The notes: generated by a model from the sequence alone, not told the origin. A stretch of 64,000 nucleotides of DNA from an uncultured Nitrososphaerota archaeon (GCA_963799845.1 CAWCYI010000006.1:544001-608000), one strand, 5' to 3'; positions 11,341 through 21,539 are shown, numbered from the stretch's first letter. A program made the numbers and translations.

Positions 11341-12267
11341 ATGAATTTCACAACGCACGTTATGTTCGGAGTACTGTTGGCGGCCGTATTCTTTGGCAAG
11401 CCTGAGATAATCCTCCTAGTAGCGATTGGTTCGGCGATTCCAGACTTGGACAGAGAATACGGTTTTCTAAGCAAGGAAACCTTTCGCAACGCAGAGGTCC
11501 ATCGAGCTCTATTCCATAACTTCTTGTTTCTCGGATTGCTCTGTCTGATCAATCCATTCCTCGCTCTTGGCGCTTTTCTGCACACATTTCTTGATGCTCT
11601 GACGACGGCCAGAGATAGAGGCGTCGAATGGCTTTTTCCGTTTTCGAGGTTTGTCAAAAGAGCTGCATATGATAACGATGGGAATCGCTTGGATCTCGAT
11701 CCCAATGAGAAAATATACTTCCTTCAAAATGAGATACATATCTTGACAAAGAAGACCACAAAGGACTTGAAACCAAGTGGGCCTTTATTGCCGTGGCGCA
11801 GAACTTACGGTCCGGCATTGTCCGGACGGCTGCTTGATCTGGGTATCTTTGTGGGTTCTCTCGGACTTACGCTTTTGCTTCTTCTCTTTTCTGTTCTTGG
11901 TTTTCACCAGTTCATAGATTTGGCAATCCTTCCTTCTGGACCAGCCTTTTACCTTCCACTCTTGCTCGGCGCCGCCGGGATCATAGTGAACTTTGTCGGG
12001 GGAGAGATTGACAGAAAGAAGCTTGCTAAAAACTTCAAACCTGATCATCTTTACAAGTTCTTTTTTTACCTTTCAACCGGAGACATGATACTCGCAGTAG
12101 CCCTCGGGGCAATAATGAATCCCGAAATCGTGATCTCAACGATGAGAATGATCCCATATATTGCAGCTGGTGTTGCCCTTGTCTTTCTCGTCTCTTTCGT
12201 CATATTGAAAATTTATTCCGCAAAGCCTCTGCCACTGGACGAGACGAAGGAACCGACAATAATTTGA
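11341..12267 (+). CDS. Membrane-bound metal-dependent hydrolase (YdjM/DUF457-like)
   Basis: Motifs TH, IPDLD, HRALFH and HTFLD..T..GVEWLFPF; multiple TM segments. Confidence 0.85.
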   Translation: MNFTTHVMFGVLLAAVFFGKPEIILLVAIGSAIPDLDREYGFLSKETFRNAEVHRALFHNFLFLGLLCLINPFLALGAFLHTFLDALTTARDRGVEWLFPFSRFVKRAAYDNDGNRLDLDPNEKIYFLQNEIHILTKKTTKDLKPSGPLLPWRRTYGPALSGRLLDLGIFVGSLGLTLLLLLFSVLGFHQFIDLAILPSGPAFYLPLLLGAAGIIVNFVGGEIDRKKLAKNFKPDHLYKFFFYLSTGDMILAVALGAIMNPEIVISTMRMIPYIAAGVALVFLVSFVILKIYSAKPLPLDETKEPTII

Positions 12268-12556
12268 TGTAATAAGCAAATTGAACGTCAACAAGAAGCC
12301 TCGTCCCAGATAGTGTCAAAACCAAAACTGAAAGCACATTGTATTCAAACACGGTGATACCCGGTTCACTTTAGACATGAATGGTCAAAATTGCCAGCTA
12401 GAATGAACATCATAGTTTTATGAAGAATTAGCTGGAAGTGGGGTAATTCTTTTTGAATATGCGGATCGGATGGCTGGAGCCAATGTTGAGAACGTCGACC
12501 TTCTGTCTCGCTGCCGTTGACAGGAGAGCAAGACCAAGGATAAGCGGGGCCTCCCA

Positions 12557-12934
12557 ATGTTTCTAGAAGTCGTTAAACTGGTAGTGAATACCATCCTTAA
12601 TGGTGGAGTAAAAGACTCTAATGTTTCAGACCTATCCCTAGAAGTCAAAGAAAAAATGGGTACATATACCCTCGGCATTGGCTCAACGATAGTCCTAGAA
12701 TCCAAAAAGGTGCTAACGCCAAAAGAAAAAAGAAGAAAAAACCTGATCATATCGTTAATAATATCATTGATTTTCATGATTGGGCTCTCTACCATTGGTG
12801 CTTGGCTCCCGGACGCTCAGGCTGGTCTAGGGAGAACATTGATTTTACTGAGTGAAATACCAGCGTTTGCGTACAGTCTTATAAGCACGAGATTCTTGAT
12901 GAAAAAAGCATCGCGCCGTAAAGCTACCAACTGA
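12557..12934 (+). CDS. Hypothetical membrane protein A1 (beta-hairpin module + 2 TM)
   Basis: Clear paralog of 14863..15216 (LSLE.KE, NLII, LPDA, GRTL..LSE.P, ISTR). Confidence 0.75.
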   Translation: MFLEVVKLVVNTILNGGVKDSNVSDLSLEVKEKMGTYTLGIGSTIVLESKKVLTPKEKRRKNLIISLIISLIFMIGLSTIGAWLPDAQAGLGRTLILLSEIPAFAYSLISTRFLMKKASRRKATN

Positions 12935-13044
12935 CGCTATCCAAACTTCACCTCAAAGAAAATCCTTTGCAGTAAGCGTAGAGAGATTGGACTGATGCGA
13001 GGATCGATATCGGGCACGGAAATTGTTCCCTTGATTCGATCGGT

Positions 13045-13527
13045 CTATTTGCCCGTTGCCGGAAAAGATGCAAAGTAATTTGAAGAGCTTTTCCGTCCGA
13101 TTGTCTCTATCACTTCGGTCCAGACCACGTCTCTCACGCCTCTCATGGCCTTCACATCTTCAAGCAGATTGAGCAAAACGCCGTTATCCTTTACGAAGAC
13201 TTCGACACGCAAATCGATTGTGTGTTCTCCGATTGTTCTTGCCGCGTACACTACCTCGTCACGCTTCAAAAGCTCCTTTCCGAGCTCAATTGTAGCGCCC
13301 CCTGTGGTATATATGAGAAGATCCACTCTCCTATATCCGAACTTCATCGGATCAAGCGCGTAAGTTTTTATGAGATAGTCAGACTCAAGTCTTTTCCGCG
13401 CTCTCTGAACAGTGCTCAAGGGGACTCCGAGTTCCAGAGAGATTTCATGCGTTGGCATTTTTCCTTCAGAGCCAAGCAGGAGCCGTAGAATCTTGCCATC
13501 TGTTTCTGAGAATTGCGAAATCATCAT
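13045..13527 (-). CDS. Lrp/AsnC family transcriptional regulator 1
   Basis: HTH EISLELGVPLSTVQRARKRLE plus RAM domain; paralog of the ORFs at 16446 and 23784. Confidence 0.9.
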   Translation of the reverse strand: MMISQFSETDGKILRLLLGSEGKMPTHEISLELGVPLSTVQRARKRLESDYLIKTYALDPMKFGYRRVDLLIYTTGGATIELGKELLKRDEVVYAARTIGEHTIDLRVEVFVKDNGVLLNLLEDVKAMRGVRDVVWTEVIETIGRKSSSNYFASFPATGK

Positions 13528-14048
13528 GAATTCTTACCTCTTTCAAACATCTAATGCCAACGGCTCAAAATTGTCATTGAAAGTGCGTTGCATCTATTGC
13601 ACTGCACAGTAAATTGAATTCCAGCGCCCATCTCCTTGAGTTCCTTAACGTTCCACTCGTGTGAGAGATAGTGATCAGCCAAGGCTTTAGGATTCTGTTG
13701 CACTTCCATCTGGACCTCTGAAAGCTTTGGAATCGAACATTGCGTTATTTTTCCGGAATTGTGATACTCTGGCGTTATCAATTTTTAGACTATCTTGATA
13801 GCAGCACGGCTTGAATGAAAGCTAGGAGTTCAATAATCGTCCGAAAAAAGAGATAATCCGCATAAATTGAATCCTAGATGAATAGAAATAGGATTAAGTC
13901 TCGGTCTATTTGGGCAATTTGTTCATTTCAATGATTCGTTTTGGCAATAGACTAATCTTCCTCTCTCGAACGGAGTTTTCCCCTGCTCCTGGTAGGGACT
14001 TACTAAACTTGCCAGAACCTAAGATAAGAAATGGATGCCATTCATATG

Positions 14049-14354
14049 TTACTGGTTTGCTTGAACTTGTGAAGAAGTTTCTAGAGTTCCAACAAGCGTC
14101 ATCAAGTCCTCTTTGCTAGTCTTTAACGCGACTTTGTCTCCTATTCCCTGCACGTGCGTCACATCAATTGGAATATGCGTACTGCGGAAGACTTTCCTCA
14201 TCTCGAACTCTTTAGCCACGTCTCCATCAAGCTGGACATCCAAAGATCCAATCTTCCAAGTCTTTTCATCGAACATTACGTTCTTTACTGTCCCTATCAC
14301 CCAGCCATTTAGTCCAATCACTTCTTTGTCCATCAAGTCAAGTATGTTCATCAT
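14049..14354 (-). CDS. PRC-barrel domain protein 2
   Basis: DLMDKEVIGLNG..IGTVKNVMFDEKTWKI..L..IP...VQGIGD.V pattern. Confidence 0.88.
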   Translation of the reverse strand: MMNILDLMDKEVIGLNGWVIGTVKNVMFDEKTWKIGSLDVQLDGDVAKEFEMRKVFRSTHIPIDVTHVQGIGDKVALKTSKEDLMTLVGTLETSSQVQANQ

Positions 14355-14486
14355 TTACCAAGCTCAGCCCTCAGTTGATCCTCGCTATCGGATAAGGCTT
14401 ACTCTCTTCCAATTTGTTCAGGACAAGTCTAGAACTGCTAACAAGCTAAAACGGATCTCCGGATGTCTTCTTGTCGGAGTGATCTG

Positions 14487-14771
14487 TCAAGAGACTTCCG
14501 AGGCTGCGAGCAGACCCATTAATTCTTCCTTGCTAACCTTCAGCGTAACCTTGTCTCCGATTCCTTGCACAATATTCACGTCTAATGGAATACGATAATT
14601 TCGAAAGACCTTCTTCATTTCAAATTCCCTTGCCACATTTTCATCAAGCTGGACATCAAGTGATCCAACTTCCCATGCTTTTTCATCAAACATTACATTC
14701 TTGATGGTCCCGATCAACGAACCATTCAATTCAACAATTTCTTTGCCCAACAAATCCATCATGTCCATCAT
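14487..14771 (-). CDS. PRC-barrel domain protein 1
   Basis: Tandem paralog of 14049..14354; both are preceded by AAGCCTTATC. Confidence 0.88.
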   Translation of the reverse strand: MMDMMDLLGKEIVELNGSLIGTIKNVMFDEKAWEVGSLDVQLDENVAREFEMKKVFRNYRIPLDVNIVQGIGDKVTLKVSKEELMGLLAASEVS

Positions 14772-14862
14772 TTAGGAACTCACTTTGCGTTGAAACTTGC
14801 CGTCCGATAAGGCTTTGGAATGGGAGTCATTCGAGTGATGCGACGTCATCCAAATTAAGGGA

Positions 14863-15216
14863 TCAAGAAATGTTTCTAATTATGTACCGCGTGCTGATGA
14901 TGTTGACTAAAATCGCTGGGAATTCGCTCAAATAGACAAGCGTTCGACCAAAAACTGCATCTGGAAGTAAGGTTCCAACCACGGCCAGCGCAACCCAAAT
15001 GGACAGAGAGATGAAAAATACTATAATCAAATTCCTACTTCCCGTATATCTACGTACTAGTTCCCCTTTTGTTGCAACAAGCACTGTCGAGTTAATATCG
15101 AGAACGTACTTTCCATCGGTCTCCTTGAGTTCGAGAGACAAATTTGTAATCTCAGAGTCTGTAATTATGAGATGAAGCCAGAAGTTCAAAACCATTTTTG
15201 AGAGCCTTGCGAACAA
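14863..15216 (-). CDS. Hypothetical membrane protein A2 (beta-hairpin module + 2 TM)
   Basis: Paralog of 12557..12934. Confidence 0.75.
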   Translation of the reverse strand: MFARLSKMVLNFWLHLIITDSEITNLSLELKETDGKYVLDINSTVLVATKGELVRRYTGSRNLIIVFFISLSIWVALAVVGTLLPDAVFGRTLVYLSEFPAILVNIISTRYIIRNIS

Positions 15217-15586
15217 ATGACCATTACCTAGATGTTCATTGCATTTTCCTTATGTCACAGATTACTAAAACTAGGCTGGTGGACGTTTTTCAAATCCTCG
15301 AGGGCCTCATGATTGACGGTCGATTCTGGCAATGCTGAAATCATTCTCCCAACTAATTCTTGATTCACGGTAGAACTACTTAATGCCATCGGCGAATACG
15401 TGCGCATGTAGCAGTTTTGAGTGGCAAGACACTGCTTAATGTGAACGATCTAGTCAAATATTATACCCCCAATGAGCCGTGATCTCACAAATCATTAGAG
15501 AGTCTTCGCAATTGAGCATTCTTGGGCTTCTCGAATGATACTACGCCAATATAGTACCTAGTGCCCATAAGAGGTGGTCTTATTTT

Positions 15587-15838
15587 ATGACAACAACAAC
15601 GCAAAAAGCAACGGAAACTATGGAGAACGTCGGCAAAAGTGTTCACCATCAGACGGAGAAACTAAACGATTCTTTGGACACTGTGAGAAAACAATTAGTT
15701 ACTTATGGGGACGAGATTCAAGAGTACCTAGGGAAAGTCGACGCTAAAGTCGATGCGTGGAAGTTTTCCATCGAGAAGCAAAATGAAGGACTTATCGTGG
15801 ACATCGCGTTCCGTGCGACGATACATCCGAAAAGGTAG
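15587..15838 (+). CDS. Hypothetical small protein B1 (amphipathic helix + beta-hairpin)
   Basis: SD GAGGTGG upstream; paralog of 20429..20710 (Q.YL.KVDAK.D..KF..EK..EGL.VD..FRAT.HPK). Confidence 0.8.
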   Translation: MTTTTQKATETMENVGKSVHHQTEKLNDSLDTVRKQLVTYGDEIQEYLGKVDAKVDAWKFSIEKQNEGLIVDIAFRATIHPKR

Positions 15839-15888
15839 ACTGAATCATTTGCTGGGATTAACGGATAAACAAGAGAAGATAGAGTAGC

Positions 15889-16011
15889 ATGATATTCTCA
15901 TTAAGAAAGAAAAATAACAAGAGCGGGATCGGAACTCTAGGCGTCATAGTAGTTGTGGTGCTTGTAATAATCGTTCTCGCATGGTTCGGGTTCGGCGGAC
16001 TGCATCTCTAA
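15889..16011 (+). CDS. 40-aa pilin-like/class III signal-like membrane micropeptide 1 (not in ORF track)
   Basis: MIFSLRKKNNKSGIGTLGVIVVVVLVIIVLAWFGFGGLHL. Same length and pattern as the paralog at 21417..21539; followed by a T-tract and a C(UUCG)G hairpin. Confidence 0.8.
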   Translation: MIFSLRKKNNKSGIGTLGVIVVVVLVIIVLAWFGFGGLHL

Positions 16012-16445
16012 ACCTTAGAGACGCTCTCTTTTTTTGCACCACCTTCGGTGGGCCTTGTGCGCGCTGACGCAAGGCGTATGTGATCCTAACGAGATTTAGA
16101 AGCTACCTCTAGTGACAACTTTTTTTCTTGGAGAATAATAATCAGAAAGACGTCAATCTAAAATCCGTTCAACTTTGACCTAACAAGTAGCGGAAAGCAC
16201 TGAATCTCAAATTTTCTCGAATAAACCTGAGAATCCTCCAATTTCATATTCTTGTCTACCAGGCGAAATCTGCGAATTTACTTCCAACGGGAGAATATCG
16301 AGATTTCATAATCTTCCGATGTCTGGTGGTTAGCTGGTTCTCATTAGTCCGAATTCCTTTCGCTCGGATCACGCTCTCAAATTTGATAATCGTATCTTGG
16401 CTTTAAGAGAGGCCTTGGTCCATAGTTCTCGTTGAGTGATTAAGC

Positions 16446-17114
16446 ATGATATTCAACGGGCTTGAACAAATGACTAAGCATTTGCAGCTTTCCGAAGAAG
16501 ACAGGAAAATGTTAAAGCTTCTAGTTGATTCCGGGGGAAAAATATCATCGTTCGAAATATCTCAACAATTTGGAGTCTCATTGAGCACTGTTCAGCGGAG
16601 GCGGAAGAAACTCGAAGATACTTATTTCATAAGAACTTACTCGCTGGACCCCGTGAAGCTCGGATATCGAAGGATCGAGCTTCTGATATACACAGTAGGT
16701 GGCACTACGATCGATATCGGAATGGAACTTCTGAAGCGTGAAGAGGTGACTTCCGTATTCAGAACTTTGGGAGAGCATGCGATTGACCTACGCGTTGAAG
16801 TCTTCGTGAAGGATAATGCAGCTTTGCTCGATCTTCTTGACCAGGTAAGAGCTATGAAAGGAGTCAAGGATGTAATCTGGACTGAAATTTTCGAGCCCAT
16901 GGATATGACGAGTGCTACAAATCGTGTCTCCAGGGGGAATGAGGTAGAACCACGGCCTGCCAACCTAGCTAAGAGCGAATTGAAAACGTATGAGAGATAT
17001 GCGTCTATCGCCCTTCCTGAAATCCCTGCCCACTCGAACTTTGCACTAGATCTTCCTGAACGATCCACTGAGGAATTGAAAATTCTGGAAAGAATTAATG
17101 TAATCGGGCAATGA
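16446..17114 (+). CDS. Lrp/AsnC family transcriptional regulator 2 with C-terminal extension
   Basis: Paralog of 13045 and 23784 (LSTVQRRRKKLE, GEHAIDLRVEVFVKDN) with an extra tail of about 55 aa. Confidence 0.88.
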   Translation: MIFNGLEQMTKHLQLSEEDRKMLKLLVDSGGKISSFEISQQFGVSLSTVQRRRKKLEDTYFIRTYSLDPVKLGYRRIELLIYTVGGTTIDIGMELLKREEVTSVFRTLGEHAIDLRVEVFVKDNAALLDLLDQVRAMKGVKDVIWTEIFEPMDMTSATNRVSRGNEVEPRPANLAKSELKTYERYASIALPEIPAHSNFALDLPERSTEELKILERINVIGQ

Positions 17115-17352
17115 ATTTTTTTGAATAGATATCTGAGAAAATAAAAGTTGGCCGGAGGGCATCAAAAACAACGGACGGGAAGAGGATTTCTCATTTCATG
17201 GATTTTCAGAAGAAAGTGATCTGGGAACTAGCGCTGGAAATGCCTCGGTTCGACTCAGGTCAGTCAAGTTGATCGCAAAAGGAATCTTACTGTCACTTTC
17301 TAGTCATATCAAACGATGGTCGGTGATTGTTTCGTCAGTTTTTAGCCATTAT

Positions 17353-17372
17353 TTGAACAGTTCATTATTATA
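17353..17372 (+). promoter_or_regulatory. TTGAAC-N7-TATA promoter motif (fasciclin 2)
   Basis: TTGAAC agttcat TATTATA; same spacing at 20375, 21581-21600 (-) and 23548-23567 (-). Confidence 0.6.
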
Positions 17373-17413
17373 GATCCTACGCGGTCTGATCAACACAGGT
17401 AATGTGAAAATTT

Positions 17414-18025
17414 ATGGCAACAATAAATCAGCAGATGTCAGATATACTAGATACAGCAAAGTCAATTGGTGACTTCAAAATGCTTATGCGAGTAGTAGAG
17501 GGAGCAGGTCTTGCAGACACTCTAAAGAGTCAGGGCCCTTTCACAGTGTTCGCTCCTACAGACGAAGCATTCAGGAATCTTCCAACTGGAGAATTGGATG
17601 AATGGTTGAGAGATCCTTCAAAGTTGAGGAGCATAGTCACCTATCACATCGTTGATCGCAAGATCGATGAGAATGAATTTCACAGGTTGACTGCAGATAG
17701 GAGAACCCCAAGTGTAATGACGATGCAAGGATCATCAGTCGTGATCAAGACCCATGGGACCCTATCAAAAACAATGTTCGTAAACGATGCGAAAGTAATC
17801 AAGTCTGACATTCTAACCACTAATGGTGTAATTTACATCATTGACAGAGTACTCGAGCCTGCGCCTGCAGCTCAAGCGCCTATGACCGCAGCTCCACAAA
17901 CAAAGAGTGAAGCCACGGCTCCGACTCCAGAAACCGCCACTCCGGCTCCTCAAACCACAACTCGAAACGAGTCGACGACAACTACTACGACTACAACAAC
18001 GAATCCTCCAAATCCGACCTCCTGA
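17414..18025 (+). CDS. Fasciclin (FAS1) domain protein 2 with Thr/Pro-rich tail
   Basis: Motifs GPFTVFAPTDEAF and TTNGVIYIIDRVL; paralog of 10590..11066. Confidence 0.92.
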   Translation: MATINQQMSDILDTAKSIGDFKMLMRVVEGAGLADTLKSQGPFTVFAPTDEAFRNLPTGELDEWLRDPSKLRSIVTYHIVDRKIDENEFHRLTADRRTPSVMTMQGSSVVIKTHGTLSKTMFVNDAKVIKSDILTTNGVIYIIDRVLEPAPAAQAPMTAAPQTKSEATAPTPETATPAPQTTTRNESTTTTTTTTTNPPNPTS

Positions 18026-18041
18026 TTTAACTCATGAGCGC

Positions 18042-18083
18042 GGCCTCAAAGGAGTGTATTTGCACTCCTTTGGACTAGAGGCC
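18042..18083. terminator. Strong stem-loop between convergent fasciclin 2 and csbD-like genes
   Basis: CAAAGGAGTG (18047-56) pairs with CACTCCTTTG (18063-72); outer GGCCT/AGGCC pair. Confidence 0.55.
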
Positions 18084-18395
18084 CAACATCACTTCACTCC
18101 TGAGATACAACTTCTGTCTGCTGGGACCCAGAATTGACGCCTGAAAAACCAAGTTCACTTTTGCAATCGTGGAAATATCAGAAAAAAGAGGGGAGGTACT
18201 TCAAACAAATACCTCCGATGGAAATCAAGTACTTTAGCCTTAGATTCTCTTTCTAGCCTTCCCGACCTCTTTCTGCACCCTACCCCTGACTTGCTCCATC
18301 TTTCCTTTTACTTGTTGGCTCTTGTTATTCGTAATTTTTCCAACCGCTTCGCGGGCCTTTCCCTTAGTATTCTCTCTTTCGCCTTCTCTGATTTG

Positions 18396-19433
18396 TCTCT
18401 TTTCCGACAATTATTTCGCAAGCTGGTAAACAGGAGTAGACTGGGAGAGTTTTGGAAGAGCGTAACAAAGCGTTACGAGAAACATGTGCCCGCGAAGTCT
18501 TGATAGCGACAAGATCAGTTACCTCTTCAGAGCTAGAGAAAGGGGCGAGACCTGCGCAAACATTGCTCTCCAGCTCGGGGTGTCAAAGAGGAGGGTTGAG
18601 CAGATACTTGCCCAGCATAGGAAAGGTGGGGGTGTGCCTCTCCTCCTCAAGAAACCAGGAAGGAAAAGCATTCCAATTACCGACGAGGAAACTTCACTCG
18701 TCATTGATGCTTATCAGAGATATAGGGCAAACGCCCTCTACCTTGAACGAAAGATCGAGTGCGATAGCAAGATTCACATCAACCACAACAGGATACACAG
18801 GGTGCTCCTGATGAACTCCTTTGCGTCAAACTCTAGGAAGAAGTGGATAAGGAGGAAGTGGGTCAGATACGAGAGGGAGCACTCGAATTCATTATGGCAT
18901 ACGGACTGGCACGAGGTAAAGGATCCGAGGTGGAAGGGCAAGTGGCTCACCTGCTATGAGGATGATGCTTCTCGTCTCATTACCGGATTTGGGGTCCATG
19001 AAACGCTGACCTCGGAGTACTCTGTTTCCTGTCTTGAGAGCGCCATGAAGGAACACGGCAAACCTGCATCGATCCTATCCGACCACGGAACCACATTTTA
19101 CACGATGGAATCTGAGAGGAGGGAGAAGGGGATGACAGAATTCGAGAGGTGTCTCTTGAAGCACAAGATAAGATTCATCCTCGGAAGAGTCAACCACCCC
19201 CAGACGAACGGCAAGATCGAGAAGTTCTTCGACATATTCGAGAGTAAGATCAAGTGGTTCTCCTCGATAGATGAGTTCATGAAGTGGTACAATGAAGTGA
19301 GGCCTCATGGAGCCCTTGACCTCAAGACGCCAACCCAGGCTTACTACGAGAAGATGCCGCAGTTAGATGCTCTTGAATATCCTTTGTCTATGGAGGTCTC
19401 CTGACAGATGCGAAATGATTTCTGGAAAAAACA
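18396..19433 (+). mobile_element. IS481-family insertion sequence, copy 1 (1038 bp, 14-bp TSD CCTTCTCTGATTTG)
   Basis: Imperfect IRs TCTCTTTTCCGACAATTATTTCGCA / TGCGAAATGATTTCTGGAAAAAACA; TSD at 18382-18395 and 19434-19447. Confidence 0.93.
18484..19404 (+). CDS. IS481-family DDE transposase
   Basis: Motifs WHTD, DDASR, SDHG, HPQTNGKIE and YNEVRPH. Confidence 0.93.
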   Translation: MCPRSLDSDKISYLFRARERGETCANIALQLGVSKRRVEQILAQHRKGGGVPLLLKKPGRKSIPITDEETSLVIDAYQRYRANALYLERKIECDSKIHINHNRIHRVLLMNSFASNSRKKWIRRKWVRYEREHSNSLWHTDWHEVKDPRWKGKWLTCYEDDASRLITGFGVHETLTSEYSVSCLESAMKEHGKPASILSDHGTTFYTMESERREKGMTEFERCLLKHKIRFILGRVNHPQTNGKIEKFFDIFESKIKWFSSIDEFMKWYNEVRPHGALDLKTPTQAYYEKMPQLDALEYPLSMEVS

Positions 19434-19655
19434 CCTTCTCTGATTTGTTTAGACATTATGGAATCATTGAGAGTTCAGCGCAAGTGAGTATTAATGGGAT
19501 TTCGCCAGCATTGTGATTCAAATGCGCTTTCTTAGTCATTCTGGAGACGCTTAATGACCTTTGCTTCAAGCTTTAGGGCATTTGCTGGGCGATTCGTTAT
19601 CATAGCACGAGAGCAGTTTACACACCAAGGAAATGAAAGAGAAAGGTAAATTGAC

Positions 19656-20072
19656 ATGAGCACAGCCCCAGAAGATCTAAAGAACATACTTGGACCAAAC
19701 GAGCAGGTACAGATCTATATCAAGCAGAAATTTTATCATCCAAAGATCAATATCGACTCGGTCGTCATAACAAACGAAAGAATAATTCTGAGACATCCCC
19801 ATGCCCTCACACTGAAAAAAGATTATACTGATTTCAATTATCAAGATATTTCAAACGTCGTGTTGAACAAGGGAATCATTAGATCAACTGTAAATTGCAC
19901 ACTTCGATTCGGCGGAGATGCGTTATCGCTAGCTTCCTTGCGCAATTCGGAGGCAGAGAAGGCCTATGGTTTAATCAGAGAGAATCTCGTCCGATACCAG
20001 TCGCCACTCACTGCACGATCAGAGGGAGTCCCTTCTCTCCAGGCCGTGCCAGGAACAACTCCCCGAACGTGA
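19656..20072 (+). CDS. Bacterial-type PH domain protein
   Basis: ILGPNEQV...VVITNERII...DFNYQDISNV pattern. Confidence 0.8.
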   Translation: MSTAPEDLKNILGPNEQVQIYIKQKFYHPKINIDSVVITNERIILRHPHALTLKKDYTDFNYQDISNVVLNKGIIRSTVNCTLRFGGDALSLASLRNSEAEKAYGLIRENLVRYQSPLTARSEGVPSLQAVPGTTPRT

Positions 20073-20428
20073 AGCAACGATAGGTTCCGAAATGAGCGGT
20101 AATCCGACGATTCGCGTCATGCAGCATTTCACTGCGATTTCATTAGCACATGATTTGACGGCGAAAGAGTTCGAGACGGTGTAGAAAGATGGTCCAGATT
20201 GTAAAAGAAAAAGCAGAAGGCAATTCGAAACTAAAACCAAAAAACTTCCTGAGTTAGCCTTTGAGAGCGGTGAGAAGGGGCACGAAAACGAGGGCGGACA
20301 TGAAATGCCTAGAGAAGGAAAGCCCTTTCGACAACAGGGCATATTGATTATCCTGTTCACAAAATCACTTCAATTTGAACTTCTGACCTTTATAGAAAGA
20401 AGTACTTCTACTAAATGTTGAGAAATTT

Positions 20429-20710
20429 ATGACAACCTTGGTTACAGACAATGAAGTAGAGCCGGAAAGAAGTTCCGGCGATTCGGCGGGTCAATCAGAG
20501 GACTCTGAACCTAAGGTCGGTCTGAAGCAGCACCTCTCAAACTACAGTAATCAGGTTCAAGATTACCTAGACAAGGTTGACGCGAAAATTGACGGATTCA
20601 AGTTCACGTTAGAGAAACACGGCGAAGGACTCACGGTAGATCTTTCATTCAGGGCAACATTACACCCAAAAAATGCAAAGACCGCTGAGAAAACTGAGAA
20701 AGAAGTCTGA
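20429..20710 (+). CDS. Hypothetical small protein B2 (amphipathic helix + beta-hairpin)
   Basis: Paralog of 15587..15838; preceded by TTGAAC-N7-CTTTATA. Confidence 0.8.
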   Translation: MTTLVTDNEVEPERSSGDSAGQSEDSEPKVGLKQHLSNYSNQVQDYLDKVDAKIDGFKFTLEKHGEGLTVDLSFRATLHPKNAKTAEKTEKEV

Positions 20711-21416: not shown

Positions 21417-21539
21417 TCAAAGGTGCAGGCCAGCGAAGCCGAAGTACGCAAGAACGATGATTACAACGACGGCAATTATTATGACTTCGAGAGACCCCAT
21501 CCCAGACTTGCTATTATTTTTCTTCAATAAGAATCTCAT
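21417..21539 (-). CDS. 40-aa pilin-like/class III signal-like membrane micropeptide 2 (not in ORF track)
   Basis: MRFLLKKNNSKSGMGSLEVIIIAVVVIIVLAYFGFAGLHL; Gly-1 and Glu+5 arrangement. Confidence 0.8.
   Translation of the reverse strand: MRFLLKKNNSKSGMGSLEVIIIAVVVIIVLAYFGFAGLHL

What the first reader, a model, noticed from the sequence alone, without database searches (positions are those of the whole stretch)
12557..20710. Four-member helix+beta-hairpin family: two soluble subunits and two membrane-anchored versions
The soluble paralogs (15587..15838, 20429..20710) end in DAKIDGFKFTLEKHGEGLTVDLSFRATL. This aligns without gaps, with the same alternating hydrophobic pattern and conserved D...D, to DSEITNLSLELKETDGKYVLDINSTVLV and DSNVSDLSLEVKEKMGTYTLGIGSTIVL near the N-terminus of the 2-TM paralogs (14863..15216, 12557..12934). 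Each is preceded by an amphipathic helix. Inference: a beta-hairpin that polymerises into a sheet, ring or filament, tethered by membrane-anchored homologs, analogous to gas-vesicle GvpA ribs or the SigB-controlled Asp23/AmaP pair.
Basis: inference. Interest (0 to 1): 0.75.

Follow-up and report, generated by a model that had tools for sequence, protein, structure and literature searches.

The report
Two linked small-protein families, not one
The four genes are real, but they form two unrelated small-protein families of an uncultured soil archaeon, one soluble and one membrane-bound, that are repeatedly encoded side by side and probably work together at the membrane.

Summary
All four ORFs exist. 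The two soluble proteins are paralogues (54% identity over 50 aa), and so are the two membrane proteins (41% over 119 aa). BLASTP finds nothing. hhalign gives probability 0.15-0.6%, and 40 of 200 column shuffles reach its score. HMMs in both directions find nothing.

AlphaFold2 gives both families the same layout, a helix followed by a long beta-hairpin. Confidence is high for the soluble protein and low for the membrane protein.

The soluble family has five stand-alone copies in this genome and 138 clusters in metagenomes. The membrane family has 79 proteins and always occurs as an A/B pair. Neither matches Pfam, NCBIfam, PDB, PADLOC or PHROGs.

The two families are genuinely gene-linked. A soluble gene lies next to TM-B in 10 of 15 informative loci, in three different arrangements. 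A PRC-barrel gene pair is linked to them too.

A real membrane-anchored homologue of the soluble domain does exist, but elsewhere in the genome. It is a GtrA-like protein with a C-terminal copy (hhalign 89.8%, 0 of 200 shuffles).

Best reading: a lineage-specific membrane-associated assembly. Binding and polymerisation remain untested.

The parts
12557..12934 (+). TM-A: 125-aa small membrane protein. N-terminal amphipathic helix, predicted beta-hairpin, one clear TM helix, and a conserved moderately hydrophobic C-terminal helix.
   Evidence: ORF. 41% identical to TM-B. A-type orthologues at 48-98% identity. No Pfam or NCBIfam family. Hydropathy. A 195-nt contig from an RNA library covers 12518-12712 with 0 differences.
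14863..15216 (-). TM-B: 117-aa paralogue of TM-A with a TTG start. The N-terminal residues upstream of the internal Met are conserved in homologues.
   Evidence: AlphaFold2: H2-17, E21-33, E36-47, H59-83, H87-96, H98-116; mean pLDDT 59.8; hairpin below 50.
15587..15838 (+). sol1: 83-aa soluble helix + beta-hairpin protein, head-to-head with TM-B across a 370-bp spacer.
   Evidence: The same head-to-head arrangement occurs in 5 metagenomic loci. An RNA-library contig covers 15601-15854 with 1 difference.
20429..20710 (+). sol2: 93-aa soluble paralogue with a disordered acidic N-terminal tail, a helix and a long hairpin.
   Evidence: AlphaFold2: H29-48, E50-64, E67-80; pLDDT 88-96 over residues 30-80. 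Syntenic CsbD-bPH-sol2-TM109-pep2 block in G203 (L016).
14049..14771 (-). Two stand-alone PRC-barrel genes (14049..14354, 101 aa; 14487..14771, 94 aa) lying between the convergent TM-A and TM-B.
   Evidence: Pfam PRC at E 1.8e-7 and 3.8e-9. 65% identical to each other. Orthologues lie next to TM genes in 9 of 20 metagenomic loci. They are 2 of only 4 PRC matches in the genome.
15889..16011 (+). pep1: 40-aa single-pass hydrophobic peptide, 50 nt downstream of sol1.
   Evidence: 84-92% identical copies directly downstream of the sol1-type gene in L055, L056, L058 and L059. RNA-library contigs cover 15884-16016.
21417..21539 (-). pep2: 40-aa paralogue of pep1 (65% identity), near sol2.
   Evidence: Weak Flp1_like match, E 2.8e-4, below the cut-off. 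80% identical copy in the syntenic locus L016.
15217..15586 (.). Divergent intergenic region between TM-B and sol1, with conserved sequence blocks. One is an AT-rich block about 31-41 nt upstream of the sol1 start codon.
   Evidence: Alignment with four metagenomic loci: 69% mean column identity and several invariant runs. Reading it as a promoter is inference.
13045..13527 (-). Lrp/AsnC-type regulator between TM-A and the PRC pair. Its paralogue lies at 16446..17114 (+).
   Evidence: Pfam HTH_24 / AsnC matches. The pair is 61% identical. Orthologues occur in L057, L062, L064 and L074.
11341..12267 (+). YdjM-like membrane protein directly upstream of TM-A.
   Evidence: Pfam YdjM at E 5e-13. 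Same order in L074 (83% identity). A 66% identical copy lies next to a soluble-family gene in another archaeal family (L038).

Best explanation
The finding covers two separate protein families of unknown function, restricted to one archaeal lineage. They are functionally coupled but are not detectably homologous.

Family 1 (sol1, sol2 and three more paralogues) is a cytoplasmic domain of about 55 residues. An amphipathic helix packs on one face of a long two-stranded beta-hairpin, and a variable disordered tail precedes it. A two-stranded sheet with open edges is not a stable monomer. I therefore infer that it is an oligomerising or docking module.

Family 2 (TM-A, TM-B) is an obligate pair of small membrane proteins. 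Each has an N-terminal amphipathic helix and hairpin, inferred to be cytoplasmic, and a strongly conserved membrane part. I infer that they form a heteromer.

Mechanism I think most likely: the TM-A/TM-B pair forms a membrane platform whose cytoplasmic hairpins recruit the adjacent soluble helix-hairpin protein by edge-to-edge sheet pairing, perhaps together with the PRC-barrel pair encoded between them, under Lrp-type regulation.

Shown: two families; their gene linkage; the predicted folds; a true membrane-fused copy of family 1 elsewhere in the genome.
Inferred: topology, oligomerisation, physical contact and the physiological role (envelope or stress-related).
For: Separate families.

Both are real, conserved gene families. 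The soluble family has 138 representatives at E<=1e-3 and 74 at E<=1e-10. The membrane family has 79 proteins, all at E<=1.7e-24.

Obligate A/B pair. Each of the 4 genomes with the family has exactly two copies. 12 of 20 metagenomic loci hold both types, and a 13th (L074) holds a truncated second copy.

Linkage. The soluble-core HMM hits 9 of 20 metagenomic loci and 3 of 4 genomes. I dropped 5 loci with under 500 nt upstream of TM-B, the TM-A-centred L074, and the apparent duplicates L070=L068, L069=G210 and L065~G205. After that, a soluble gene lies next to TM-B in 10 of 15 loci, in three arrangements: 6 head-to-head, 3 same-strand operon, 1 downstream convergent. That variety argues for selection rather than inherited synteny alone.

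PRC pair next to TM genes in 9 of 20 loci plus the window. PRC-barrel genes also lie next to distant soluble-family genes in 2 of 7 loci from other families, both in one genus.

Fold. The membrane family's hairpin residues are conserved (G35, Y37 and L39 invariant or nearly so).

The domain can be membrane-tethered. The C-terminal tails of GtrA-like proteins match the soluble core (hhalign prob 89.8%, E 1.8e-6, 0 of 200 shuffles). These genes sit beside a soluble paralogue in G000 and G204.

Weak hint of transcription for sol1, pep1 and the TM-A start.
Against: There is no direct evidence of binding or oligomerisation.

The TM hairpin is a low-confidence prediction (pLDDT below 50).

5 of 15 informative loci have no soluble gene beside the TM pair (L064, L066, L067, L072, G205). 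Four of the five soluble paralogues in this genome are not next to TM-A/B.

The loci come from related organisms, so the counts overstate independence.

The neighbourhood also holds CsbD, bPH, SPFH, fasciclin and Lrp genes, so co-regulation without contact would explain the linkage equally well.

The RNA evidence consists of contigs from RNA libraries, which the tool says do not prove transcription.
Confidence: 0.45

Rival explanations
1. All four proteins are one ancient family whose hairpin polymerises into a sheet or filament. TM-A and TM-B are anchored homologues that have diverged beyond sequence detection.
For: Same predicted order and lengths of helix, strand, two-residue turn and strand, with the turns coinciding in the proposed register. 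hhalign picks that same register each time. The genes are linked. The soluble domain is demonstrably able to occur fused to a membrane protein.
Against: No statistical support in either direction: 40 of 200 shuffles reach the hhalign score, the HMM scores are negative, and the reverse HMM finds nothing. The same method does detect the much shorter two-sequence GtrA-tail alignment at 89.8%, so power is not the whole explanation. The conserved columns differ: the soluble family keeps F59, K58, E62 and K63, while the membrane family keeps S27, G35, Y37 and L39. An alternating hydrophobic pattern is generic to amphipathic strands.
Confidence: 0.15
2. Co-regulation only. The genes share a stress or envelope island and its Lrp-type regulators but do not touch. 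The soluble proteins act alone, for example as protective proteins with disordered tails. TM-A/TM-B have an independent membrane function.
For: The neighbourhood is rich in stress-type families (CsbD, bPH, SPFH, PRC) and is built from paralogue pairs. 7 of 141 soluble-family members have N-terminal tails that match apolipoprotein-like amphipathic repeats. Most soluble paralogues lie away from TM-A/B. The most conserved part of TM-A/B is the membrane part, not the hairpin, as expected for an intrinsic membrane function.
Against: Adjacency persists through three different gene orders. The head-to-head pair shares a conserved intergenic region. Soluble paralogues are repeatedly adjacent to other small membrane proteins: the GtrA-like fusion, pep, TM109, and a roughly 100-aa hydrophobic-plus-hairpin protein in 4 distant genomes.
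Confidence: 0.3
3. TM-A/TM-B are membrane anchors for the PRC-barrel pair, by analogy with membrane-tethered PRC-barrel division proteins. The soluble helix-hairpin protein is an accessory or is unrelated.
For: The PRC pair lies between or beside the TM genes in 9 of 20 loci plus the window. They are 2 of only 4 PRC matches in the genome. PRC-barrel proteins take part in archaeal cell division (passages read of bioRxiv 10.1101/2023.03.28.534520; abstract listing).
Against: 11 of 20 loci show no PRC gene within the fetched DNA, including the operon-type loci. The passages I read in that paper mention no such membrane partner. No interaction test was run.
Confidence: 0.2

Closest known systems
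Asp23 / AmaP of Staphylococcus aureus (Asp23 = Pfam PF03780; biology recalled, not read here)
   Same: The concept only: a small abundant cytoplasmic protein encoded beside small membrane proteins that tether it, in a stress-type neighbourhood.
   Different: No sequence relation. PF03780 matches none of the four genes and none of 141 soluble-family members at E<=0.01. Its only genome match is below the cut-off and lies elsewhere. Different domain of life. Tethering is not shown here.
Gas-vesicle protein GvpA (Pfam PF00741)
   Same: A small protein with a helix next to a beta-hairpin that assembles by sheet formation (recalled).
   Different: PF00741 has no match in the genome at E<=1 and none at these genes. 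The hairpin here is amphipathic with a charged face, not hydrophobic. No GvpA chain appears among the fold-search matches, which is inconclusive.
Amphi-Trp domain (Pfam PF20068)
   Same: The only Pfam model that aligns to the helix + hairpin core of sol2 (residues 30-88; E 0.013, 16 bits).
   Different: Below the 27-bit cut-off. Only 4 of 8 close relatives match at E<=1, and 0 of 141 family members at E<=0.01. The model does not find the paralogues in a whole-genome search at E<=10.
Stand-alone PRC-barrel division proteins (CdpB, CdvA PRC domain)
   Same: Two adjacent stand-alone PRC-barrel paralogues are part of the conserved cluster. Such proteins act at the membrane in archaeal division (passages).
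   Different: The four proteins of the finding are not PRC barrels. Any link is by gene neighbourhood only.
GtrA/DPMS-type membrane proteins (Pfam PF04138)
   Same: A GtrA-like 4-helix membrane protein in this lineage carries the soluble family's helix-hairpin domain at its C-terminus.
   Different: The GtrA match itself is weak (E 0.02-0.04, below the cut-off). The fusion lies outside the window and is frameshifted in this genome.

Membership tests
   BLASTP: none, or E 0.21. hhalign prob 0.15-0.59%. 40 of 200 shuffles reach the score. HMM scores -1.3 and -1.5 bits. Reverse HMM: 0 of 6 soluble ORFs among 230 hits.
   Predicted in both, but the TM-B hairpin has pLDDT below 50. The models were not superposed.
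Soluble helix-hairpin family (unnamed) | Match to the family core profile (helix + YKF..EK...G...D..FKA-type hairpin) | tested here: met
   sol1, sol2 and three other paralogues score E 1e-22 to 3e-28 against 59,485 genome ORFs. The GtrA-like fusion scores E 0.0044 and hhalign 89.8% with 0 of 200 shuffles.
TM-A/TM-B family (unnamed) | Full-length match, including the invariant G35, G81, G92, R93 and P102, and occurrence as an A/B pair | tested here: met
   Two copies in each of the 4 genomes that have the family.
GvpA (PF00741) | Pfam model match above the cut-off | tested here: not met
   No match at the four genes, in 141 soluble members at E<=0.01, or in the genome at E<=1. The genome is 86.7% complete.
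Asp23 (PF03780) | Pfam model match above the cut-off | tested here: not met
   The only genome match is 16.2 bits against a cut-off of 28, on another contig.
Amphi-Trp (PF20068) | Pfam model match above 27 bits | tested here: not met
   16 bits for sol2. 0 of 141 at E<=0.01. Not found at the paralogues genome-wide.
Any solved fold | Structural match to the soluble model | tested here: inconclusive
   Best VIA-align Z 3.3 (rmsd 3.8, 54 aligned), with 0 chains at Z>=5 of 48,161. Best Foldseek E 0.75. PDB sequence profile search: best E 0.071.
Asp23/AmaP-like tethering or filament formation | Physical binding of the soluble protein to the membrane proteins; self-assembly | not testable with these tools
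   The single complex job gave no verdict. No further multimer jobs were available.

The most novel reading that the evidence does not exclude
TM-A/TM-B, the PRC-barrel pair and the soluble helix-hairpin proteins are parts of one previously unseen membrane-tethered protein scaffold in non-model Nitrososphaerales. Hairpins from membrane anchors, soluble subunits and PRC barrels would join by strand pairing into an extended cytoplasmic sheet or filament under the membrane. This would be a lineage-specific counterpart of PRC-barrel-based division or membrane-shaping machinery, with the GtrA-like fusion as a second docking site.
Probability: 0.12. Interest if true: 0.7.

Novelty: categorically new. 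Interest (0 to 1): 0.42.

Why it matters
Neither family has a relative in Pfam, NCBIfam, PDB (by sequence or fold), PADLOC or PHROGs. Yet both are conserved, diversified and linked to each other and to a PRC-barrel pair, in a group of large-genome soil and peat archaea that has no cultured model.

If the proteins do assemble at the membrane, they would define a new small-protein scaffold. They might also supply a membrane partner for stand-alone PRC-barrel proteins, whose cellular roles outside haloarchaea are open.

If they do not, the result is still useful for annotation. It gives two clean family definitions and one domain fusion, and it corrects a plausible-looking but unsupported homology. 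Unassigned small archaeal proteins are common, so 'new' here means unclassified rather than demonstrably unusual.

Tried and rejected
1. Complex prediction of TM-B (full length) with sol1 residues 28-83: score 0.02 and 0.01 against a mark of 0.32, verdict 'no answer'. It is neither for nor against binding.

2. Amphi-Trp lead from a 16-bit Pfam hit: dropped.

3. Fold search of the TM-B model: only generic helical-hairpin matches to residues 52-117 (best Z 8.5). The hairpin part was barely tested.

4. Fold searches of the soluble model: no match. PDB profile searches: nothing below E 0.07.

5. ESM Atlas: best scores 0.81-0.83, all unnamed clusters, below the level the tool treats as a lead.

6. 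The search for related loci on genome contigs. A2 gave 2 loci, one of them a chance match of TM-B residues 1-42 to the winged-helix wing of an ScpB-like protein in a Methanoperedens record.

7. GT2 glycosyltransferase divergent from the sol-TM-B-TM-A operon in G206 and G210: not found in G000 with that query, so it is not a constant partner.

8. Cluster look-up of 10 soluble-family representatives for names or taxa: none carries a name.

9. Literature. 'amphi-Trp' gave 1 unrelated paper. 'PRC barrel' + 'archaeal cell division' gave 13 papers; I read passages of one. 'PRC barrel' / Nitrososphaer / Thaumarchaeota / CsbD, any two terms: the 12 listed titles mention neither family. I found no description of either family in these searches. 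bioRxiv supplements, such as the PRC neighbourhood table, could not be seen.

10. Earlier scan notes by sequence: nothing.

11. RNA runs cover only 5-7 of 30 bins. Parts without cover say nothing.

12. amoA model: no match, but no positive control rang either.

Full report
WHAT IS THERE

The window is contig 6, 544001-608000, of a 4.6-Mb, 9-contig, 86.7%-complete genome. Close protein relatives carry the source label 'Nitrososphaerales archaeon'.

All four ORFs of the finding exist:
- TM-A, 12557..12934 (+), 125 aa
- TM-B, 14863..15216 (-), 117 aa, TTG start
- sol1, 15587..15838 (+), 83 aa
- sol2, 20429..20710 (+), 93 aa

sol1 and sol2 are paralogues (54% identity over 50 aa, E 6e-23). TM-A and TM-B are paralogues (41% over 119 aa, E 3e-28).

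They sit in a stretch built from paralogue pairs:
- fasciclin, 70% identity
- Lrp/AsnC, 61%
- PRC-barrel, 65%
- 40-aa peptide, 65%

CsbD, bPH, SPFH, YdjM-like and IS (rve) genes lie around them.

IS IT ONE FAMILY?

No, as far as sequence can tell.
- BLASTP between sol2 and TM-B finds nothing. Between sol2 and TM-A it gives E 0.21 over 17 residues.
- The soluble alignments (8 sequences, then 141) were compared with 26 TM sequences by profile-profile comparison. The results were probability 0.15% (E 0.4) and 0.45% (E 0.13).
- Cut to the two helix + hairpin domains, the result is 0.59%, score 10.3.
But 40 of 200 column-shuffled TM alignments score as high as the observed 10.4 (mean 9.0, SD 2.3).
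- An HMM of the soluble core scores TM-B at -1.3 bits and TM-A at -1.5 bits. With all filters off, it does not list them among genome ORFs at E<=10.
- The reverse HMM (TM N-terminal domain) finds TM-B and TM-A first. None of the six soluble-type ORFs appears among its 230 hits at E<=200. Its best score against 136 soluble representatives is 3.0 bits.

The method has power at this length. A two-sequence alignment of a different membrane protein's tail scores 30.2 against the same soluble core (probability 89.8%, E 1.8e-6), and 0 of 200 shuffles reach it (maximum 16.4).

The 'conserved D...D' is not conserved, and the invariant turn glycines are one position out of register.

WHAT THE TWO FAMILIES ARE

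The soluble family
- It has five stand-alone paralogues in this genome.
- An exhaustive profile search finds 138 cluster representatives at E<=1e-3, 74 at E<=1e-10 and 1 at E<=1e-30. Nearly all are 45-115 aa, and none has the TM-A/B architecture.
- None of 141 aligned members matches a Pfam family that would explain the core at E<=0.01. 7 of 141 match apolipoprotein-type amphipathic repeats in the N-terminal tail.
- AlphaFold2 with that alignment predicts a disordered tail, then helix 29-48 and a long hairpin 50-64/67-80, with pLDDT 88-96.
- Strand 2 is strongly amphipathic.
- No solved structure resembles it. The best Z is 3.3, with 0 of 48,161 chains at Z>=5. The best Foldseek E is 0.75.

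The membrane family
- It has 79 members, all at E<=1.7e-24, with a sharp edge and no informative names.
- AlphaFold2 predicts helix 2-17, hairpin 21-33/36-47 (pLDDT below 50), then helices 59-83, 87-96 and 98-116.
- The first hydrophobic helix is clearly transmembrane. The second is only moderately hydrophobic.
- The loop and second helix are the most conserved parts. G35, G81, G92, R93 and P102 are invariant.
- Basic residues flank the first TM helix on the N-terminal side. I therefore infer that the hairpin domain is cytoplasmic.

DISTRIBUTION

The membrane family
- It was found in 3 of 12 other genomes of the same family-level group. Each of those has two copies.
- It was found in 0 of 200 other genomes sampled across the class.

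The soluble family
- It was found in 9 of 12 genomes of the same family-level group. This count includes the unpublished G201; without it the count is 8 of 11.
- It was found in 2 of 200 other genomes in the class sample.
- It was found in 8 of 300 other genomes in the phylum sample.

Many of these genomes are incomplete, so these are 'not found', not 'absent'.

LINKAGE

- In G206 and G210 the genes form a same-strand cassette, soluble -> TM-B -> TM-A. In G205, TM-B -> TM-A stand without a soluble gene.
- Of 20 metagenomic loci fetched with the TM-B profile, 9 contain a soluble-core HMM hit and 12 contain both TM types.
- To count linkage I dropped several loci. Five lack 500 nt upstream of TM-B (L057, L060, L063, L071, L073). 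L074 is centred on TM-A. L070 matches L068 with identical scores. L069 has a TM-B sequence identical to G210's. L065 has scores nearly identical to G205's.
- I then added the four genomes. A soluble gene lies next to TM-B in 10 of 15 loci.
- Six of the ten are head-to-head, as in the window. Three are same-strand operons. One is downstream and convergent.
- The closest relatives (L055-L059) repeat the window's order exactly: pep <- sol <> TM-B -> PRC -> PRC (-> Lrp). They share conserved blocks in the divergent spacer.
- PRC-barrel orthologues lie next to TM genes in 9 of 20 loci. The genome has only four PRC matches.
- Two of seven distant soluble-family loci, both from one genus of another family, also have a PRC-barrel neighbour.
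- These loci are related by descent, so the counts are not independent trials.

A TRUE MEMBRANE-ANCHORED HOMOLOGUE

On contig 4, next to another soluble paralogue, lies a GtrA-like membrane protein. Its C-terminal roughly 50 residues match the soluble core.
- The core HMM gives E 0.0044 among 59,485 ORFs.
- hhalign gives 89.8%.
- The GtrA match itself is weak (E 0.02-0.04).
- In G204 the gene is an intact 249-aa frame in the same synteny: wHTH gene, soluble gene, fusion, zinc-finger-like gene.
- In this genome the gene is split by a frameshift.

EXPRESSION

Contigs from two peat metatranscriptome libraries of one study cover three places:
- 12518-12712, with 0 differences
- 15601-15854, with 1 difference
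- 15884-16016

They cover little else of the 3.7 kb: 7 and 5 of 30 bins. The tool warns that this does not prove transcription, so I treat it as a weak hint.

HOW IT MOST LIKELY WORKS

Shown: two families, their linkage, the predicted folds and the fusion.

Inferred:
- The soluble domain, a single helix covering a two-stranded sheet with free edges, is an oligomerising or docking module carrying a variable tail.
- TM-A/TM-B form a heteromer presenting cytoplasmic hairpins.
- The adjacent soluble protein, and possibly the PRC pair, dock there by strand pairing.

I put about 0.45 on this assembly reading as a whole. I put about 0.9 on 'two families, linked'.

The main rival is co-regulation without contact (0.3). 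An anchor for the PRC pair gets 0.2; this one overlaps with the best reading.

The one complex job returned no verdict and counts neither way.

COMPARISON WITH KNOWN SYSTEMS

- The GvpA, Asp23 and Amphi-Trp models do not match.
- PADLOC gives nothing. PHROGs gives nothing relevant: only one weak match of unknown function to the membrane part of TM-A (E 0.0032).
- Functionally, the nearest analogy is a small cytoplasmic protein held at the membrane by small membrane proteins (Asp23/AmaP, recalled). Membership is not met and tethering is not shown.
- In the searches I found no description of either family.

VERDICT

The finding should be re-filed as two unclassified, gene-linked small-protein families plus one domain fusion. 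It is of moderate interest.

Noticed in passing
window 15889-16011 (+) and 21417-21539 (-): Two 40-aa paralogous peptides (65% identical): a basic N-terminus, then about 27 hydrophobic residues ending in GLHL. They are conserved at 84-92% directly downstream of sol1-type genes in four metagenomic loci, and at 80% in G203. There is a weak Flp1_like match, below the cut-off (E 2.8e-4). They may be a pilin-like or single-pass membrane mini-protein, and a candidate partner of the soluble family.
   Followed up: partly
G000 contig 4, about 1871399-1872149 (L003 668-1421, minus strand); intact copy at L045 1495-2244 (-): A GtrA-like membrane protein carrying the soluble family's helix-hairpin domain at its C-terminus, next to a soluble paralogue. 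It is split by a frameshift near L003 position 1053 in this genome and is intact (249 aa) in G204. It could be a pseudogene or an assembly error.
   Followed up: yes
window 18484-19404 (+): An IS-type transposase (rve integrase core) sits between CsbD and the bPH gene. The syntenic locus in G203 (L016) has CsbD, bPH, sol2, the 109-aa membrane protein and pep2 within 2.2 kb, too little room for such an element. This suggests a recent insertion here.
   Followed up: partly
window 15217-15586: The divergent spacer between TM-B and sol1 keeps several invariant blocks across four metagenomic relatives. One is an AT-rich block about 31-41 nt upstream of the sol1 ATG. They are candidate promoter and regulator sites.
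   Followed up: partly
L038 1716-2030, L077 1741-2046, L078 1720-2031, L081 about 1811-2026: In four genomes of other families, the soluble-family gene is followed on the same strand by a protein of about 100 aa. It has an N-terminal hydrophobic region, a predicted hairpin-like stretch and a helix. In L077 and L078 a protein of about 170 aa follows that. hhalign against the TM-A/B N-domain gives P 0.0099 and probability 4%, which is inconclusive. Against the soluble core there is nothing.
   Followed up: partly
L038 329-1258 (-) and window 11341-12267 (+): The YdjM-like membrane protein upstream of TM-A has a 66% identical copy next to a soluble-family gene in a genome of a different family in the class. 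L074 has an 83% identical copy in the window's gene order.
   Followed up: no
L014 1-288 (-) and L032 1296-2591 (+): A membrane GT2 glycosyltransferase (Glyco_trans_2_3, E 5e-20) lies divergent from the sol-TM-B-TM-A operon in both G206 and G210. It was not found in G000 with that query.
   Followed up: partly
L054 3944-5038 (+): TM-B residues 1-42 gave a short match to the hairpin wing of an ScpB-like winged-helix protein in a Methanoperedens record (shared ..LEIKEIDGKYV.. motif). I judge it a chance or convergent hairpin motif.
   Followed up: partly
whole genome G000: The archaeal AmoA model found nothing in this 4.6-Mb, 86.7%-complete genome, but the control genomes gave no positive either. 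The lineage may be a non-ammonia-oxidising member of its order.
   Followed up: no
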